A model generated the notes under the pieces. That model was given only the letters and a program-made list of their open reading frames with translations. It was not told the DNA's origin and made no database searches. The translations under genes and the position numbers were made by a program. Shown here piece by piece: positions 41,387 through 52,544 of a DNA stretch of 64,000 nucleotides (positions are counted from its first letter, which is position 1; every line of letters begins with the position of its first letter). This DNA comes from Ignavibacteriota bacterium (GTDB taxonomy: Bacteria; Bacteroidota; Ignavibacteria; UBA10030), in assembly GCA_963701295.1 (NCBI GenBank), contig OY969585.1, positions 2,304,001-2,368,000 of the forward strand, in the 5' to 3' direction.

Positions 41387-41414
41387 TTGACAACAAGTTA
41401 TAAAGGATTATATT
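41387..41414 (+). promoter_or_regulatory. sigma70-type promoter of the ATP-grasp/GNAT/KamA operon
   Basis: TTGACA-N16-TATATT, overlapped by AACAAGT repeats. Confidence 0.6.
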
Positions 41415-41486: not shown

Positions 41487-42602
41487 TTGCTAAAGCGACT
41501 GAACGTAGCTCTCGTCTACAATATCAAGAAGGAAAGTAGAGAAGAAGCTTCGAGTAGTGAAAGAGATCCGGATCAGTTTCAAAGAAAAAATAAATCCGGC
41601 GAAAAAGAATCGAACCTTCAACAGACGAAAGCTGACACATATGCAGAATGGGACACAGAAGAAACCATTCTCGCCGTGAAGACGGCGCTTGAATTGAATC
41701 ACGAAGTTACTCTCATTGAAGCCAACGAGGAAGCCTATCTCAAACTCCTCAGTGCACGTCCAGATATTGTCTTCAACATCGCTGAAGGATTTCGAGGACC
41801 ATCGCGTGAAGCGCAAATTCCAGCGATACTTGAGATGCTGGGAATTCCATACACCGGTTCAGATCCAATTACACTCGGAATTTGTCTTGATAAATCTCGT
41901 ACAAAGGAAATTCTCGCACACTATAGAATTCCGACCCCGACGTTTGCTGTTATCGATTCTGTCGATCAATTATCCAACTTCGATGATTTCCTTCCTTGTA
42001 TTGTCAAACCATTACATGAAGGGTCAAGCAAAGGAATTTTCAACTCATCCGTAGTACATACCAATGAGCAGCTTCGCAGACAAGCGGGAAGAGTGTTCTT
42101 CGAGTATGAAGAACCTGCAATCATCGAAAAATTCTTGAATGGAAGAGAGTTTACTATCGGTATTCTCGGAAATGGTCTGGATATTCAAGTATTGCCAATT
42201 GTAGAAATTCGATTTGATTCACTTCCGGATGGCGTCAATCCTATCTATTCGTATGAAGCAAAGTGGATTTGGGATTCATTAGATAATCCTCTCGATGTTC
42301 ACGAATGTCCAGCAAAGATACCGGCGAAATTACAAAGAGAAATTGAAACGATTTGCCGCGATACATACCGGGTTTTGCGTTGTCGGGACTGGTGCCGAAT
42401 TGACATACGATTAGATGAAGATGGTCGGCCCTATGTGTTAGAAGTGAACCCTTTACCTGGAATTCTCCCCAATCCTAATGAACATTCCTGCTTTCCTCAG
42501 GCCGCCAGAGCGGCAGGATTGGATTATAGTGCAATGGTAAATACCGTTTTAGAGGCTGGAATTAAACGATACGGCTTACAAACAAACGATTTAAAAAATT
42601 GA
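41487..42602 (+). CDS. Ddl-like ATP-grasp amide ligase 1
   Basis: IPYTGS..LDK, IVKPLHEGSSKGI, EKFLNGREF, RIDIR, LEVNPLPG; lacks the GGxSxE N-terminal motif of true Ddl. Confidence 0.9.
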   Translation: MLKRLNVALVYNIKKESREEASSSERDPDQFQRKNKSGEKESNLQQTKADTYAEWDTEETILAVKTALELNHEVTLIEANEEAYLKLLSARPDIVFNIAEGFRGPSREAQIPAILEMLGIPYTGSDPITLGICLDKSRTKEILAHYRIPTPTFAVIDSVDQLSNFDDFLPCIVKPLHEGSSKGIFNSSVVHTNEQLRRQAGRVFFEYEEPAIIEKFLNGREFTIGILGNGLDIQVLPIVEIRFDSLPDGVNPIYSYEAKWIWDSLDNPLDVHECPAKIPAKLQREIETICRDTYRVLRCRDWCRIDIRLDEDGRPYVLEVNPLPGILPNPNEHSCFPQAARAAGLDYSAMVNTVLEAGIKRYGLQTNDLKN

Positions 42603-43699
42603 TGCCAGAAATGGCACATATTGCAATAGTTTTCAACGAATTGACCGTCGAGCCCGATGTTGCGAGAAAGTTCGCTATTGAGGCTGGACAAGTAATGGCC
42701 TTAGCCTCTTCCTCAGCGAGTATCACCAGCGTTGTTGGCAACCTGATAGACCTATCGGAAATAGGTGTTATTGAAGAACGTGAAAGGATGCAAGAAGCCC
42801 TGCAACAAAAAGGATATCGCACATCGCTCTTTAATATCAATGGCGACATCAAGCGGCTTATCAAATTTCTTGAGGAAACGAAGATCGATCTTGTATTCAA
42901 CCTTTGTGAATCGCTTAGGGGGCAGGCGATAAACGAGATGCATGTTGCAGGCATTTATGAGCTGATGAATGTTCCCTATACCGGTGCCGCAACACTTGCG
43001 CTTGGCACGTGTTTGAATAAAGTCAGAACAAAAGTGATCTTGGATGCCCATGGCATATCGACTGCACGTCATGCTCTCTATAAAAGACCCGAAGAAATTA
43101 ATCTCGATGATCTGCGTTTGAATTTTCCTATGATTGTGAAGCCATCGCGGGAGGATGCAAGTATAGGAATTGAAAATTCATCTGTTGTGCGTGACATCGA
43201 ATCACTTCGTCAACGAGTTGTATTTGTTGTGAAGACCTATAATCAACCTGCTTTGGTGGAAGAATATATTGAAGGAAGAGAATTAAATGTCTCGATCATC
43301 GGGAATGAACGGCCGACAATTCTTCCGATTTCCGAAATTGATTTTTCAAAATTACCGCCGAACTATCCAAAAATTGTAACATATAACGCAAAATGGGTAG
43401 AAGGAACACCAGAATATATTGGCACGGTGGGGACCTGTCCCGCAAAGCTTACCACTGAAGTGGAGCAACGGATTCGTGATATCGCACGGCAAGCGTATAA
43501 ATTGATGGAGATCCGCGATTATGCGCGTGTGGACATCCGGCTTGATGCATCGAACATTCCTTACGTACTGGAAGTGAATCCGAATCCCGATATTTCGCGG
43601 GATACAGGATTTGCACGTTCTGCTCGCGCGGCTGGCATGACCTTTGAAGATATGCTCGCAAAAATTATTGAGACTGCACTTGAACGAATACGTCAGTGA
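42602..43699 (+). CDS. Ddl-like ATP-grasp amide ligase 2
   Basis: FNLCE, VPYTG, IVKPSREDASIGI, EEYIEGRE, RDYARVDIR, LEVNPNPD; TGATG overlap with ligase 1. Confidence 0.9.
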   Translation: MPEMAHIAIVFNELTVEPDVARKFAIEAGQVMALASSSASITSVVGNLIDLSEIGVIEERERMQEALQQKGYRTSLFNINGDIKRLIKFLEETKIDLVFNLCESLRGQAINEMHVAGIYELMNVPYTGAATLALGTCLNKVRTKVILDAHGISTARHALYKRPEEINLDDLRLNFPMIVKPSREDASIGIENSSVVRDIESLRQRVVFVVKTYNQPALVEEYIEGRELNVSIIGNERPTILPISEIDFSKLPPNYPKIVTYNAKWVEGTPEYIGTVGTCPAKLTTEVEQRIRDIARQAYKLMEIRDYARVDIRLDASNIPYVLEVNPNPDISRDTGFARSARAAGMTFEDMLAKIIETALERIRQ

Positions 43700-43703
43700 G
43701 AAT

Positions 43704-44177
43704 ATGCTGATTCGGAAATTTGAAAAGGCTGATATTGCACAATTATCAGAAATCGTCCGTGCGACGAAAGTATTTCATGAAGAAGAAGTTGATGTTGCCA
43801 TAGAGTTGATGGAAATTGCAGCGAATGAGAAAGATCAGAAAGATTATTTCCTGTATACATATGTGGATGAGTCCGGAGTTCTACAAGGATATTATTGTGT
43901 TGGACCAACACCGATGACAAAATCGACGTATGATCTGTATTGGATTGCAGTGCATCCACGCATGCACAGAAAAAAAATTGGCCGCGACTTGCTTGAGCAT
44001 TGTGAACAGCAAGTGCAAGGAATGGGTGGAACACTGCTTGTTGTTGAAACATCGTCACAGCCGAAGTACGAACCGACACGAAAGTTCTATCTTCGGCATC
44101 AGTACATAGAGACAGCACAGATCAAGGATTACTATGCACCGGGTGATGACCTGGTCATCTATACTAAACACTTCTAA
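43704..44177 (+). CDS. GNAT family N-acetyltransferase
   Basis: DLYWIAVHP..KKIG acetyl-CoA motif A; VETSS..TRKFY..DYY..GDD. Confidence 0.9.
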   Translation: MLIRKFEKADIAQLSEIVRATKVFHEEEVDVAIELMEIAANEKDQKDYFLYTYVDESGVLQGYYCVGPTPMTKSTYDLYWIAVHPRMHRKKIGRDLLEHCEQQVQGMGGTLLVVETSSQPKYEPTRKFYLRHQYIETAQIKDYYAPGDDLVIYTKHF

Positions 44178-44195
44178 GGAGCAAACGCATACGTT

Positions 44196-45386
44196 ATGGA
44201 ACTATGGCAAGAAATGCTTAGACAGAGCGTGGACAGTGCAAAAGATTTAGTTGAACGATTTGGATTTGATACAGAAACCGCCGAGAAGCTCAACAAGCTT
44301 TTCCATATCAGAATCAATCCATACTATCTTAGTTTAATTCGGTACCCAAACGATCCTATTTGGCGGCAATGTATTCCGGATGCAATAGAACTTCAGGACG
44401 AAAAAGCACCTGAGGATCCATTAAATGAAGAGGCCGATAGTCCTGTTCCGAGTATTACGCATCGATATCCAGACAGAGTACTCTTTCTCATTACCAGTCA
44501 ATGTTCGATGTACTGTCGCTTCTGTACGCGTAAACGAAAAGTGAGTGATTCGACAAAAATCAATGCAAAATATATCCAACGGGGATTAGAATATATCGGC
44601 GCTCATCCTGAGATACGGGATGTGATTATCTCAGGCGGTGATCCGTTAATGGTGACCGATTATGCCTTAGAAAAAGTGCTTGCAGGGCTTCGAGAGATTC
44701 CTCACGTCGAGATTATCCGCCTTGGCACAAAAATACCATGCGTTCTGCCACAGCGAGTAACGACAAAACTCTGCAAGATGTTGAAGAAGTATCATCCATT
44801 ATACGTGAACACGCATTTTAACCATCCGTGGGAATGTACACCGGAAGCTGAGCGCGCGTGCAATATGTTGGCGGATGTCGGAATCCCTGTGGGTAATCAA
44901 GCCGTGCTGATGAAGGGTGTGAACGATAACGCCGAAGTCATGCTGGAATTGCATCGGAAGCTGCTCAAGATGCGCGTACGTCCGTACTACATCTATCAAG
45001 CCGATCTCACCAAAGGCACCAACCATTTCAGAACACCTGTACGTGTTGGTTTAGAGATTATGGATAAACTACGCGGACATACTTCTGGACTTGCCATTCC
45101 CTATTATGTTATCGATGCGCCGGGCGGAGGTGGAAAGATTCCATTGTTACCGCAATATGTGCTCGGACGGAACGGAAAAGATATTATGCTCCGTAACTAT
45201 AAATATGAGATTTATACTTATCCGGATGTAGAAGATGCAACGGTAGAACAATATCCGGTAGAACGCAAGTATATGCGGAAACATCAGAACAGCAGACGCA
45301 AATCCGTGAGCGTTCCAAATTCTGCGGAAGGGACAGAAGAGAAAGTCCTTGTGGAACAAGCTCCAGTGGGACAAGTTGTAAAGTAA
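44196..45386 (+). CDS. kamA: KamA family radical SAM enzyme (lysine 2,3-aminomutase type)
   Basis: HRYPDRVL, CSMYCRFC, SGGDP, HFNHP, NQAVL, PYYIYQAD, HTSGLA, DAPGGGGK (PLP lysine). Confidence 0.88.
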   Translation: MELWQEMLRQSVDSAKDLVERFGFDTETAEKLNKLFHIRINPYYLSLIRYPNDPIWRQCIPDAIELQDEKAPEDPLNEEADSPVPSITHRYPDRVLFLITSQCSMYCRFCTRKRKVSDSTKINAKYIQRGLEYIGAHPEIRDVIISGGDPLMVTDYALEKVLAGLREIPHVEIIRLGTKIPCVLPQRVTTKLCKMLKKYHPLYVNTHFNHPWECTPEAERACNMLADVGIPVGNQAVLMKGVNDNAEVMLELHRKLLKMRVRPYYIYQADLTKGTNHFRTPVRVGLEIMDKLRGHTSGLAIPYYVIDAPGGGGKIPLLPQYVLGRNGKDIMLRNYKYEIYTYPDVEDATVEQYPVERKYMRKHQNSRRKSVSVPNSAEGTEEKVLVEQAPVGQVVK

Positions 45387-45405: not shown

Positions 45406-45460
45406 AAGCCCGTCTCGATACTTGTTCGCCATTCTGTGGCGGAAGTCGGGACGGGTTTTT
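45406..45460 (+). terminator. Intrinsic terminator after kamA with a nested inner hairpin
   Basis: AAGCCCGTCTCGAT..GTCGGGACGGGTTTTT outer stem; inner TTCGCCA-TTCTG-TGGCGGA. Confidence 0.8.
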
Positions 45461-45497: not shown

Positions 45498-46703
45498 ATG
45501 GCAGCAGTAAGAGATTACACAAAACTGATTCGCGAGATCCAAAAGATATTGCAGGCTGAAAAGATCGATGGTTGGCTGCTTTATAACTTTCGTGATTCGA
45601 ATATCTTTGCGACCCGGCTTCTTGCATTGCCGGACCATATTATGTTCACACGACGGTTCTTTTATTACATTCCGGCATCCGGTGAACCAAGAAAATTGGT
45701 GCATAGAATTGAAGAGTGGAATTTGGATGCGCTACCGGGCGGAAAAAACATCTATCTGAGTTGGCGGTCATTGGAAGAGGGCTTGAAGAAACTTCTTTCC
45801 GGTTCAAAACGAGTGGCGATGGAATATTCGCCGAAGTGTGCGATTCCATATATCTCAACCGTCGATGCAGGGGCGATAGAACTTGTACGTGAAAGTGGAG
45901 TAGAAGTTGTTTCCTCAGCAAACCTCATTCAGCATTTTGAAGCACGCTGGAATGAAAAGCAATTGAATGATAACATCAAAAGTGCGACACATCTTCGGCA
46001 AATTGCGGATAGAGCATTTGGATTTATTCGAGATAGTATCCTGTCGAACAGTGCAATTACAGAATATGATGTTCAGCAGTTTATGATGTCGGAATTTAAG
46101 AATCGTGGATTAATCACATCGAGCGACCCTAATTGTTCGGTCAATGCAAACAGCGCTAATCCGCATTACGAACCGACAAAAGAGATTCATTCCCCGTTGC
46201 AAAAAGGTGATTTTGTACTCTTAGATTTATGGGCGAAGAAAGATAAGCCGCGCTCGGTGTATGCCGATATTACATGGACTGGCTTTATCGGTGAAAAGGT
46301 ACCAGAAGAGTATGAAAAGATATTCCAAATCGTTAAAGGCGGACGCGATGCAGCACTAAATTTTGTACGCACTTCCATGGAGAAGGGGAAAGTTGTCCAT
46401 GGATATGAAGTAGATGACGCAGCACGGAATTATATTACCCAGCATGGATACGGCGAATATTTTGTTCACCGCACGGGGCATTCCATCGGTGAGGAAGTGC
46501 ACGGCAATGGTGCCAATATGGACAATCTGGAAACTCGTGATGAACGAACTATCATACCTCAAACTTCATTTTCTATTGAACCTGGAATTTATCTCCGTGA
46601 TGAATTCGGTATCCGTAGTGAGATAGATGTTTATATCACAAAAGATAATGAAGTTCTCGTTACCGGATTACCGATGCAGGAAAATGTAGTGGCGATATTA
46701 TAA
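45498..46703 (+). CDS. M24 family Xaa-Pro aminopeptidase
   Basis: NSANPHY, LLDLW, YADITW, HRTGHSIG..VH, FSIEPGIY, GIRSE. Confidence 0.9.
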   Translation: MAAVRDYTKLIREIQKILQAEKIDGWLLYNFRDSNIFATRLLALPDHIMFTRRFFYYIPASGEPRKLVHRIEEWNLDALPGGKNIYLSWRSLEEGLKKLLSGSKRVAMEYSPKCAIPYISTVDAGAIELVRESGVEVVSSANLIQHFEARWNEKQLNDNIKSATHLRQIADRAFGFIRDSILSNSAITEYDVQQFMMSEFKNRGLITSSDPNCSVNANSANPHYEPTKEIHSPLQKGDFVLLDLWAKKDKPRSVYADITWTGFIGEKVPEEYEKIFQIVKGGRDAALNFVRTSMEKGKVVHGYEVDDAARNYITQHGYGEYFVHRTGHSIGEEVHGNGANMDNLETRDERTIIPQTSFSIEPGIYLRDEFGIRSEIDVYITKDNEVLVTGLPMQENVVAIL

Positions 46704-52094: not shown

Positions 52095-52168
52095 GGGCCG
52101 TTAGCTCAGCATGGGAGAGCGCCACAATGGCATTGTGGAGGTCACCGGTTCGAGCCCGGTACGGTCCA
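52095..52168 (+). tRNA. tRNA-Ala(GGC)
   Basis: Cloverleaf with CCACA-AT-GGC-AT-TGTGG anticodon arm, G3-U70 identity pair, and A32/U38. Confidence 0.97.
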
Positions 52169-52170
52169 CG

Positions 52171-52200
52171 AAAAGGACAATCCAATCGATTGTCCTTTTT
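52171..52200 (+). terminator. Terminator after tRNA-Ala (duplicated at 52514-52543)
   Basis: AAAAGGACAATC-CAATC-GATTGTCCTTTTT. Confidence 0.85.
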
Positions 52201-52206
52201 CTTATT

Positions 52207-52476
52207 ATGTTTTCAATGTACATACTTCAAAGTAGTACTTCCGGTCGGTATTATGTAGGTCATACAGATAAAATATCTCGTCGACTAACTGAGCATAATT
52301 CAGGAATGGCGAAATATACTCGACAGGAAAAGCCATGGAAAGTGGTGTATGTAGAAAATTATGCCACACGTTCAGCGGCGATGAAACGAGAGTCAGAAAT
52401 TAAAAGAAAGAAGAGCAAAAAGTATATCGAAAGACTGATTGAATCGGGAGAGCGTCCCGACACGACGGAGTCGTGA
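52207..52476 (+). CDS. Small stand-alone GIY-YIG nuclease
   Basis: MYILQS..RYYVGHT..RRLTEHN..KYT..PWKVVYVE..AMKRESEIK; the Tyr, Tyr-x-Gly, Arg, His and Glu residues of the family are present. Confidence 0.93.
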   Translation: MFSMYILQSSTSGRYYVGHTDKISRRLTEHNSGMAKYTRQEKPWKVVYVENYATRSAAMKRESEIKRKKSKKYIERLIESGERPDTTES

Positions 52477-52544
52477 CGGGAAGGTCACCGGTTCGAGCCC
52501 GGTACGGTCCACGAAAAGGACAATCCAATCGGTTGTCCTTTTTC
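52446..52544 (+). repeat. Partial tRNA-Ala duplicate (D-arm 3' strand to terminator) with anticodon arm replaced by a 27-nt palindrome
   Basis: GGGAGAGCG (52446-52454) matches 52113-52121; 52482-52544 matches 52139-52201 at 62/63; the intervening sequence is TCCCGACACGACGGAGTCGTGACGGGA. Confidence 0.93.

What the first reader, a model, noticed from the sequence alone, without database searches (positions are those of the whole stretch)
41487..45386. Operon of two Ddl-like ATP-grasp ligases, a GNAT and lysine 2,3-aminomutase: candidate pathway to a beta-lysine-containing peptide
Seen: four co-oriented genes with 1-nt overlap, 4-nt and 18-nt gaps, a promoter upstream and a terminator downstream. 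The KamA keeps CxxxCxxC, the PLP lysine, and Asp in both YQAD and IDAPGGGGK, positions that bind the substrate side-chain amine in lysine aminomutase and differ in glutamate aminomutase. The ligases lack the Ddl GGxSxE motif and differ from each other (EGSSKG/NPLPG versus EDASIG/NPNPD). Known: AblA plus AblB make the osmolyte N-epsilon-acetyl-beta-lysine, but without ligases and with a larger acetyltransferase. No lysine-fermentation genes or efp/epmA are nearby. Inference: beta-lysine is made, ligated in two ATP-dependent steps or by a heterodimer, and N-acetylated to give a small peptide, storage/osmolyte compound or cell-wall modification. Similar neighbourhoods likely exist in other anaerobes, but I know of no established product. 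The M24 peptidase just downstream could turn it over, although a terminator separates it.
Basis: partly seen in the sequence, partly recalled or inferred. Interest (0 to 1): 0.7.

Follow-up and report, generated by a model that had tools for sequence, protein, structure and literature searches.

The report
Orphan beta-lysine twin-ligase acetylation pathway
Four genes that stay together in many anaerobic bacteria likely turn lysine into beta-lysine, join it into a small unidentified amide compound and cap it with an acetyl group, and published mutants of a distant copy in a laboratory sulfate-reducer grow worse in salt or acid only when the capping gene is lost, which gives a ready test system.

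Summary
The operon is real: ligase A, ligase B, GNAT and KamA, with the stated junctions. The promoter recurs in 69 of 73 related loci, and a canonical ddl lies elsewhere. All four genes keep this order in 38 of 40 relatives and recur, often fused, in Desulfobacterota; where scattered, the missing genes were usually found elsewhere. Both ligases keep the catalytic residues but have rebuilt, acidic substrate pockets. This scan noted the cassette before in other genomes (at least 15 notes). Added here: the GNAT matches PDB 2R7H, and the operon corresponds to Dde_3041-3044 of Desulfovibrio alaskensis G20. In published transposon data all four genes are dispensable. Only GNAT mutants lose fitness, in 800 mM NaCl (means -0.77, -1.31) and at pH 6 (-0.84). 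Best reading (0.5): the ligases build a cationic beta-lysine amide whose unacetylated form is harmful; the GNAT caps it, and an acetylpolyamine-amidohydrolase-like neighbour reverses this in some genomes. Rivals: cell-wall amidation, an acetyl-beta-lysine osmolyte, protein modification. EF-P modification, a graspetide and D-Ala-D-Ala synthesis are rejected. No description found in ten literature searches. No product is shown.

The parts
41387..41414 (+). sigma-70-type promoter, TTGACA-16 nt-TATATT
   Evidence: 11 of 12 matches; same element upstream of ligase A in 69 of 73 loci; the 4 misses are loci where the ligases follow arginine decarboxylase in a longer operon
41487..42602 (+). Ddl-fold ATP-grasp ligase, clade A; catalytic set kept (K136, K174, R304, D306, E319, N321, G325); acidic donor pocket E54, D56, E100, E108; S334 kept
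   Evidence: (model pLDDT 90.1); below every Ddl cut-off shown
42602..43699 (+). Ddl-fold ATP-grasp ligase, clade B; catalytic set kept (K140, K180, R309, D311, E324, N326); NxNP[DC] in place of NxxPG; Ala/Gly at the Ser281/Leu282 positions
   Evidence: pLDDT 90.6; top folds are Ddl-family ligases
43704..44177 (+). small GNAT N-acetyltransferase, orthologue of PDB 2R7H; next best solved relatives are RimI/NAT-type; not AblB
   Evidence: E 8.6e-28; profile E 1.9e-55
44196..45386 (+). KamA-family radical SAM/PLP enzyme, predicted lysine 2,3-aminomutase
   Evidence: TIGR00238 passed; AblA model best at 465 bits but under its 525 cut-off; 2A5H, E 2e-121; both Asp kept
45406..45460 (+). intrinsic terminator-like hairpin followed by a U-run
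   Evidence: z -6.17
45498..46703 (+). M24 peptidase; neighbour only, probably not part of the module
   Evidence: follows kamA in 16 of 80 loci

Best explanation
The four genes travel as one pathway that likely makes beta-lysine, joins it through two ATP-driven amide bonds into a small cationic, polyamine-like molecule, and then acetylates a free amine to neutralise it. Shown: the operon, its conservation, the fusions, the retained catalytic residues, and the GNAT-only fitness defect of the distant G20 copy. Inferred steps: (1) KamA converts L-lysine to beta-lysine. (2) Ligase A, most tightly tied to KamA, activates the beta-lysine carboxyl as an acyl phosphate; its four acidic pocket residues would hold the two amines. 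It joins this to an amino acid, most simply a second beta-lysine, since the carboxylate-binding Ser and Arg are kept. (3) Ligase B, probably paired with A as Ddl subunits are, makes a second bond to an amine that lacks an alpha-carboxylate (a side-chain amine or a diamine such as putrescine). (4) The GNAT caps the product; uncapped material would be harmful when it builds up under salt or acid stress. (5) In some genomes an acetylpolyamine-amidohydrolase-like enzyme would remove the acetyl group, so acetylation works as a storage or detoxifying switch.
For: All four genes in order in 38 of 40 relatives, 68 of 75 Ignavibacteria-like loci, 35 of 60 hand-picked Desulfobacterota loci and 39 of 40 loci from the order of G086. 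Co-retention when scattered: KamA of the operon-linked clade in 12 of 12 genomes tested; GNAT in 14 of 20. B ligases form one clade across phyla (66 rows, SH-aLRT 95). Among the top 150 representatives: 17 A~B fusions, 8 B~GNAT, and 6 B fused to a different GNAT. Catalytic residues at or near 100% in both ligases. Deacetylase beside or fused in 5 of 60 and 9 of 40 loci; best PDB match is acetylpolyamine amidohydrolase (E 1.5e-72). Arginine decarboxylase/agmatinase directly upstream in 17 loci. PMC4215793 DataSheet2: two Dde_3044 strains (three rows) give -0.58 to -0.97 and -1.00 to -1.63 in two 800 mM NaCl chips, and -0.73 to -1.01 at pH 6.0. In those three chips kamA, ligase and downstream Dde_3045 strains stay between -0.50 and +0.12.
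Against: No product, substrate or activity is shown. Pocket assignments rest on sequence alignment to Ddl with recalled residue roles. The G20-type copy is distant (A 35%, B 25%, GNAT 41%, KamA 48% identity). Only one chip (mean -1.31) passes the paper's |1| reproducibility mark. Two strains only; polarity is unknown (the word does not occur in either main text); pooled growth can hide a shared product. The GNAT defect could come from a second role of the GNAT. The arginine-decarboxylase link may be one ancestral event (their KamAs share one clade), and in this genome those genes lie far from the operon. Six of 20 draft genomes lacked the GNAT. In 6 genomes the GNAT sits behind mreB-mreC, which points to the cell wall.
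Confidence: 0.5

Rival explanations
1. Cell-envelope decoration: the ligases attach beta-lysine or acetyl-beta-lysine to peptidoglycan (for example the D-Glu carboxyl) or to another envelope polymer, as diamines are attached in Selenomonas and Veillonella.
For: The GNAT sits directly behind mreB-mreC in 6 of 10 loci viewed (gene names read by me from the sequences, not scanned). Order-wide retention with a near-consensus promoter looks like housekeeping. Diamines on D-Glu of peptidoglycan are described in passages of PMC12826042. Salt and acid sensitivity could be an envelope defect.
Against: The mreC link is one lineage. None of the recurring neighbour clusters scanned was a Mur ligase. GNAT mutants are normal in three SDS chips (within 0.11 of zero). 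The recurring deacetylase is of the small-polyamine type. Earlier notes report copies in archaea and a fungus (not checked here).
Confidence: 0.2
2. Osmolyte route: KamA plus the GNAT make N-epsilon-acetyl-beta-lysine (the GNAT replacing AblB), and the ligases only convert it to a peptide store or an NAGGN-like neutral solute.
For: The GNAT mutant's largest defect is in 800 mM NaCl. AblA/AblB and the acetylated dipeptide NAGGN are known osmolytes (passages of PMC1224877).
Against: kamA mutants are not salt-sensitive (-0.35 to +0.09; 2 of 3 rows seen), whereas abl deletion blocks high-salt growth in M. maripaludis. G20 has a second KamA-family gene, Dde_2747, but a bulk osmolyte supply from it is doubtful (inference). 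The GNAT does not match AblB and fuses to ligase B.
Confidence: 0.15
3. Protein modification: the ligases add beta-lysine to a protein (RimK-like), and the RimI-like GNAT acetylates the new amino end.
For: After 2R7H, the GNAT's best solved relatives are RimI and an ARD1-type N-terminal acetyltransferase. ATP-grasp enzymes can modify proteins (recalled).
Against: The ligases are Ddl-like with an intact small-substrate fold. No conserved target or precursor gene is adjacent. EF-P here lacks the modified Lys.
Confidence: 0.1
4. The ligases are spare D-Ala-D-Ala or Van-type D-Ala-D-X ligases.
For: Ddl is the nearest family by sequence and fold.
Against: Both score below every Ddl/Van cut-off shown. 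His63, Gly276 (B), Ser150 (B), Tyr216 and the GGxSxE motif are replaced. A canonical ddl passes TIGR01205 elsewhere (352 vs 245.65 bits). In G20 these genes are dispensable and Dde_0366 is the annotated ddl.
Confidence: 0.03

Closest known systems
AblA/AblB (KamA/YodP) pathway to N-epsilon-acetyl-beta-lysine
   Same: Lysine 2,3-aminomutase plus an acetyltransferase in one operon; a link to salt stress.
   Different: Two ligases are added. The GNAT is 157 aa and not AblB. KamA is under the AblA cut-off. Loss of kamA gives no salt defect in G20.
NAGGN synthesis (GNAT plus ATP-grasp ligase, amidotransferase, M42 peptidase; gene set recalled, compound in PMC1224877)
   Same: An acetylated small peptide made by a GNAT and an ATP-grasp ligase, with turnover enzymes nearby.
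   Different: Uses glutamine, one ligase of another subfamily and an amidotransferase. Here: two Ddl-like ligases, a beta-amino acid source and a deacetylase.
D-Ala-D-Ala ligase (E. coli DdlB) and Van ligases
   Same: Fold, ATP and metal residues, Arg255/Asp257/Glu270/Asn272 equivalents.
   Different: Donor and acceptor pockets are rebuilt; two diverged paralogues; dispensable; a true ddl exists apart.
Polyamine acetylation/deacetylation (SpeG/PaiA with acetylpolyamine amidohydrolase) and glutathionylspermidine/trypanothione synthetases (recalled)
   Same: An acetyl switch on a polycation, harm when acetylation fails, and two ATP-grasp steps on one amine scaffold.
   Different: The GNAT and ligases belong to other families; use of a polyamine substrate is not shown.
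PDB 2R7H, 'putative D-alanine N-acetyltransferase of GNAT family'
   Same: Orthologue of the window GNAT; the same protein is encoded in a KamA-A-B-GNAT operon in locus L284.
   Different: The name is a depositor's guess; one search for '2R7H' found a single mention, in a toxin-structure paper seen only as a listing.
Microviridin/graspetide clusters (MdnB, MdnC, MdnD; recalled)
   Same: Two ATP-grasp ligases and a GNAT side by side.
   Different: No conserved precursor ORF; the ligases are Ddl-like, not RimK-like; KamA is present.

Membership tests
Lysine 2,3-aminomutase (KamA/AblA) | Passes the KamA-family model TIGR00238 | tested here: met
   310.8 bits vs cut-off 199.2
Lysine 2,3-aminomutase (KamA/AblA) | Passes the AblA equivalog TIGR03820 | tested here: not met
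   465.4 vs 525.4; still the best model, above glutamate (431.6/650), arginine (345.4/600) and EpmB (239.2/369.3)
Lysine 2,3-aminomutase (KamA/AblA) | CxxxCxxC, PLP lysine and the two Asp that bind the substrate side-chain amine (roles recalled) | tested here: met
   Aligned to 2A5H; both Asp kept in 128 of 132 KamA-family rows, the 4 others being outlier paralogues not adjacent to the ligases
Lysine 2,3-aminomutase (KamA/AblA) | Converts L-lysine to beta-lysine; stereochemistry | not testable with these tools
   needs an anaerobic assay
AblA/AblB osmolyte pathway | AblB-family acetyltransferase (TIGR03827) beside ablA | tested here: not met
   No match in the genome; control rang over cut-off in 2 of 14; the GNAT hits only rimI, weakly
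AblA/AblB osmolyte pathway | Aminomutase needed for growth in high salt | tested here: inconclusive
   Not seen for Dde_3041 in pooled 800 mM NaCl data; distant copy, medium not read
D-Ala-D-Ala / Van ligases | Passes a Ddl or Van model cut-off | tested here: not met
   Best 193.9/243 and 173.6/243 among the 25 shown per protein
D-Ala-D-Ala / Van ligases | ATP-grasp Ddl fold and catalytic residues | tested here: met
D-Ala-D-Ala / Van ligases | D-Ala pocket: GGxSxE, His63, Ser150, Tyr216, Gly276, Ser281 | tested here: not met
   His63 to Glu in 99 of 99 A and 92 of 92 B; Tyr216 to Trp in 92 of 92 B; Gly276 to Asp/Cys in 92 of 92 B
EF-P beta-lysylation (EpmA/EpmB) | EpmA present and EF-P with Lys in PGKG | tested here: not met
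   No EpmA over cut-off; the EF-P loop reads PGNL (motif from PMC2821294 passages)
Graspetide (microviridin-type) cluster | Conserved precursor peptide gene | tested here: not met
   No shared small ORF in 73 upstream regions; downstream small ORFs under 100 aa were not surveyed
NAGGN pathway | GNAT/ATP-grasp plus asparagine-synthase-like amidotransferase and M42 peptidase | tested here: not met
   No TIGR03103-type match; no amidotransferase among recurring neighbours
Diamine-modified peptidoglycan | Amine covalently on the stem peptide | not testable with these tools
   needs muropeptide analysis

The most novel reading that the evidence does not exclude
A widespread anaerobe pathway builds a new class of polyamine surrogate: beta-lysine units amide-linked to each other or to putrescine/homospermidine by a Ddl-derived heterodimer. 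Its level is toggled by a dedicated acetyltransferase/deacetylase pair, and it serves as a core cation buffer in whole orders of bacteria.
Probability: 0.2. Interest if true: 0.85.

Novelty: new variant of a known kind. Interest (0 to 1): 0.65.

Why it matters
The cassette is core to a whole order of Ignavibacteria-like bacteria and common in sulfate reducers (5445 proteins at E<=1e-30 to the clade-B profile; this count may include clade A and canonical Ddl). Databases label its ligases D-Ala-D-Ala ligase, so an abundant anaerobe metabolite or envelope modification is probably hidden under a wrong name. It would show a new use of beta-lysine beyond fermentation, EF-P and the AblB osmolyte, and new ligases for beta-amino acids or diamines. 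Archived mutants of all four genes, a solved GNAT structure and a stress phenotype already exist in D. alaskensis G20, so one metabolomics experiment could name the product.

Tried and rejected
Putrescine replaces beta-lysine. Beta-lysine is a 1,4-diamine, and 15 loci have arginine decarboxylase but no adjacent kamA. Rejected in its simple form: 12 of 12 such genomes tested keep an operon-clade KamA elsewhere; 3 were not tested.

EF-P modification: rejected. Graspetide: rejected. Riboswitch or known RNA: nothing near a gathering score. M24 peptidase as a fifth member: not conserved.

Apparent 700-1460 aa fusions (L154, L168, L171, L172) were wrong starts in GC-rich DNA and were redone with profiles. 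L186, L190, L195, L196 and the rhizobial plasmid ligases scored ambiguously between A and B and were left out of the alignments. Plasmid GNAT hits stand alone in the two regions viewed. The second GNAT type fused to B was not shown to be SpeG.

Expression: the one RNA run held 5% of the words and only contigs of relatives, so it gives no evidence for this genome. The complex prediction of A with B was not available, so the heterodimer is untested. Pairwise identity correlations of 0.81-0.93 over 136 loci reflect kinship and are not counted as evidence. Phosphate-limitation fitness data showed no clear effect. The D. vulgaris Hildenborough table listed no lysine aminomutase by name (name search only). 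Copper lowers Dde_3041-3044 together, but also Dde_3045 and Dde_3046, so it shows co-expression only.
Full report
OBSERVATION. The closest related records are titled Ignavibacteria or Bacteroidota. The genome is one contig, 99% complete. It holds one KamA, one such GNAT, the two ligases and a third Ddl-family gene. That third gene has the GGxSxE and HGxxGEDG motifs and passes TIGR01205; the two operon ligases pass none of the Ddl or Van cut-offs shown.

CONSERVATION. Among 40 relatives the four genes lie in this order on one contig in 38. In G014 the contig ends inside ligase B; in G023 the GNAT was not detected in a gap of the right size. Of 80 loci from the species collection, 75 are Ignavibacteria-like and 68 of these show all four genes; most others end at a contig edge. 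The GNAT family was found in 64 of 301 genomes of the phylum, including all 32 of the order. In the phylum of G041 (Desulfobacterota by the titles of its loci), 92 of 251 genomes had a ligase hit. I fetched 60 of them, chosen by hand for contig length and spread of score. Of these, 35 carry all four genes, usually as KamA-A-B-GNAT; 13 have arginine decarboxylase upstream; 12 are partial or outliers. In the order of G086, 70 of 301 genomes had the GNAT, and 39 of the 40 fetched loci were KamA-A-B-GNAT. Kin are not independent, so these counts describe range only. Better evidence for one pathway is retention after scattering. Twelve of 12 tested genomes without an adjacent kamA keep one from a clade shared with operon copies. 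Fourteen of 20 without an adjacent GNAT keep it elsewhere; three of the six misses also lack a clade-B ligase at the locus.

THE ENZYMES. KamA scores best with the lysine enzyme model but under its cut-off, and it keeps both Asp residues of 2A5H (their role is recalled). A tree of 152 ligase rows (Ignavibacteria thinned, short pieces dropped) puts the downstream ligases in one clade across phyla (66 rows, support 95). The upstream ligases fall in two supported groups whose union is weakly supported. Both models are confident Ddl-type folds (fold search on B only). Using recalled E. coli DdlB numbering on the alignments, both ligases keep Lys97, Lys144, Glu180, Arg255, Asp257, Glu270 and Asn272 equivalents in 90-100% of rows, so both are probably active. 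Both replace His63 by Glu. A adds invariant E54, D56, R107 and E108 and keeps Ser281 (91 of 99) and Gly276. B replaces Gly276 by Asp or Cys, Ser281 mostly by Ala, and Leu282 by Gly. I infer that A takes a donor with two amines and an acceptor with a carboxylate, and that B takes a bulkier or carboxylate-free amine. Fusions among the best 150 representatives were 17 A~B, 7 A~A, 4 B~B, 8 B~GNAT and 6 B with an unrelated GNAT, which ties acetylation to the B step. The heterodimer could not be modelled.

NEIGHBOURS. A deacetylase whose best solved match is acetylpolyamine amidohydrolase (E 1.5e-72) is adjacent or fused in 5 of 60 and 9 of 40 loci. Other recurring neighbours are C26 and M20 peptidases, an amidohydrolase and an HTH-cupin regulator. 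Seventeen loci have pyruvoyl arginine decarboxylase, mostly with agmatinase and often a deoxyhypusine-synthase-like gene, directly upstream; this may be one ancestral event. This genome has those three genes far away. In 6 genomes of one lineage the displaced GNAT follows mreB-mreC, the main hint for a cell-wall role.

A MODEL ORGANISM. The window GNAT matches PDB 2R7H (E 8.6e-28). Locus L284 encodes that same stretch in a KamA-A-B-GNAT operon. That 2R7H is Dde_3044 of D. alaskensis G20 is recalled; I did not see the Dde protein sequences. The supplements of PMC8836040 and PMC4045070 list Dde_3041 as lysine 2,3-aminomutase, Dde_3042 and 3043 as Ddl-like, and Dde_3044 as GNAT, consecutive on one strand. 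All four are classed dispensable, with archived insertion strains. In DataSheet2 of PMC4215793 (head row and 15 strain rows of part 356, plus 2 of 3 Dde_3041 rows), means for Dde_3044 were -0.77 and -1.31 in two 800 mM NaCl chips, -0.84 at pH 6.0, -0.90 in a chip labelled only 'pH', -0.45 and -0.62 in selenate, and -0.64 in one peroxide chip. They were near zero at pH 8.5-9.5 and in SDS. KamA and ligase means in the salt chips were -0.05 to -0.20, and Dde_3045 was near zero, so the defect is not a downstream polar effect. A defect confined to the last enzyme fits a harmful uncapped intermediate better than a missing end product. Limits: two strains, one chip beyond the paper's |1| mark, unknown media and polarity, pooled growth, and 25-48% identity to the window's proteins.

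VERDICT. Most likely (0.5) a small-molecule route: beta-lysine, two amide bonds, an acetyl cap, and reversible deacetylation in some genomes. Rivals: envelope amidation (0.2), an acetyl-beta-lysine or NAGGN-like osmolyte (0.15), protein modification (0.1), spare Ddl (0.03). It works like AblA/AblB extended by NAGGN-type ligation and a polyamine-type acetyl switch, but it is a member of none of these.

LITERATURE. Ten searches gave no paper describing the cassette; most hits I saw only as listings and abstract starts. Passages were read from PMC3543383, PMC2821294, PMC11337218, PMC8836040, PMC4045070, PMC4215793, PMC12826042 and PMC1224877. Supplement rows were read from PMC8836040, PMC4045070, PMC5193443, PMC4215793 and PMC10102598. 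Subscription journals and bioRxiv supplements were not searchable, so a description could have been missed. This scan has noted the cassette in other genomes at least 15 times. Those notes agree but are not independent evidence, and none of the lines shown mentions the G20 mutant data.

Noticed in passing
L329-L334 (for example L332:1-1992): The operon-type GNAT sits directly behind mreB-mreC, abutting or overlapping the mreC stop, where mreD usually lies (gene names read from the sequence).
   Followed up: partly
L092:2837-7449; L152-L158: Deoxyhypusine-synthase-like, agmatinase and pyruvoyl arginine decarboxylase genes run straight into the ligase pair.
   Followed up: yes
L110:3533-9014 (plasmid pTHIMO01): A single related ATP-grasp ligase follows diaminobutyrate transaminase and SbnA/ornithine-cyclodeaminase-like genes and faces a KamA: several diamino-acid sources around one ligase.
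   Followed up: no
L186:5471-7585, L190:5470-7386, L196:6887-8827: Methyltransferase-like domain fused to a Ddl-like ligase of a third subfamily (NPNPGW motif), with no kamA nearby.
   Followed up: no
L195:6225-8510: Ddl-like ligase fused to a peptidase-like domain, next to a gamma-glutamyltransferase-like gene (names read from the sequence).
   Followed up: no
L109:6872-9954 (pNGR234a) and other rhizobial plasmids: Lone related ATP-grasp ligases on rhizobial plasmids, one beside a CapA-family gene.
   Followed up: no
L150:8638-10899: 753-aa fusion: an N-terminal domain that looks like a second GNAT, an acetylpolyamine-amidohydrolase-like deacetylase, and the operon GNAT.
   Followed up: partly
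G000:C1:2142333-2142896 (L101): EF-P has PGNL instead of PGKG, so it lacks the usual modified lysine.
   Followed up: yes
L008-type relative G008:C10:108908-109379: The GNAT is found in two pieces (frameshift or assembly error).
   Followed up: no
window 52120-52160 and 52460-52500: Two near-identical short stretches around a GIY-YIG-like ORF (52111-52476) that read like tRNA gene copies or remnants; seen only in translations.
   Followed up: no
L203:159-2547 (G000:C1:3239482-3243423): The genome's deoxyhypusine-synthase-like gene is followed by a PLP-dependent decarboxylase-like gene, a likely homospermidine module.
   Followed up: no
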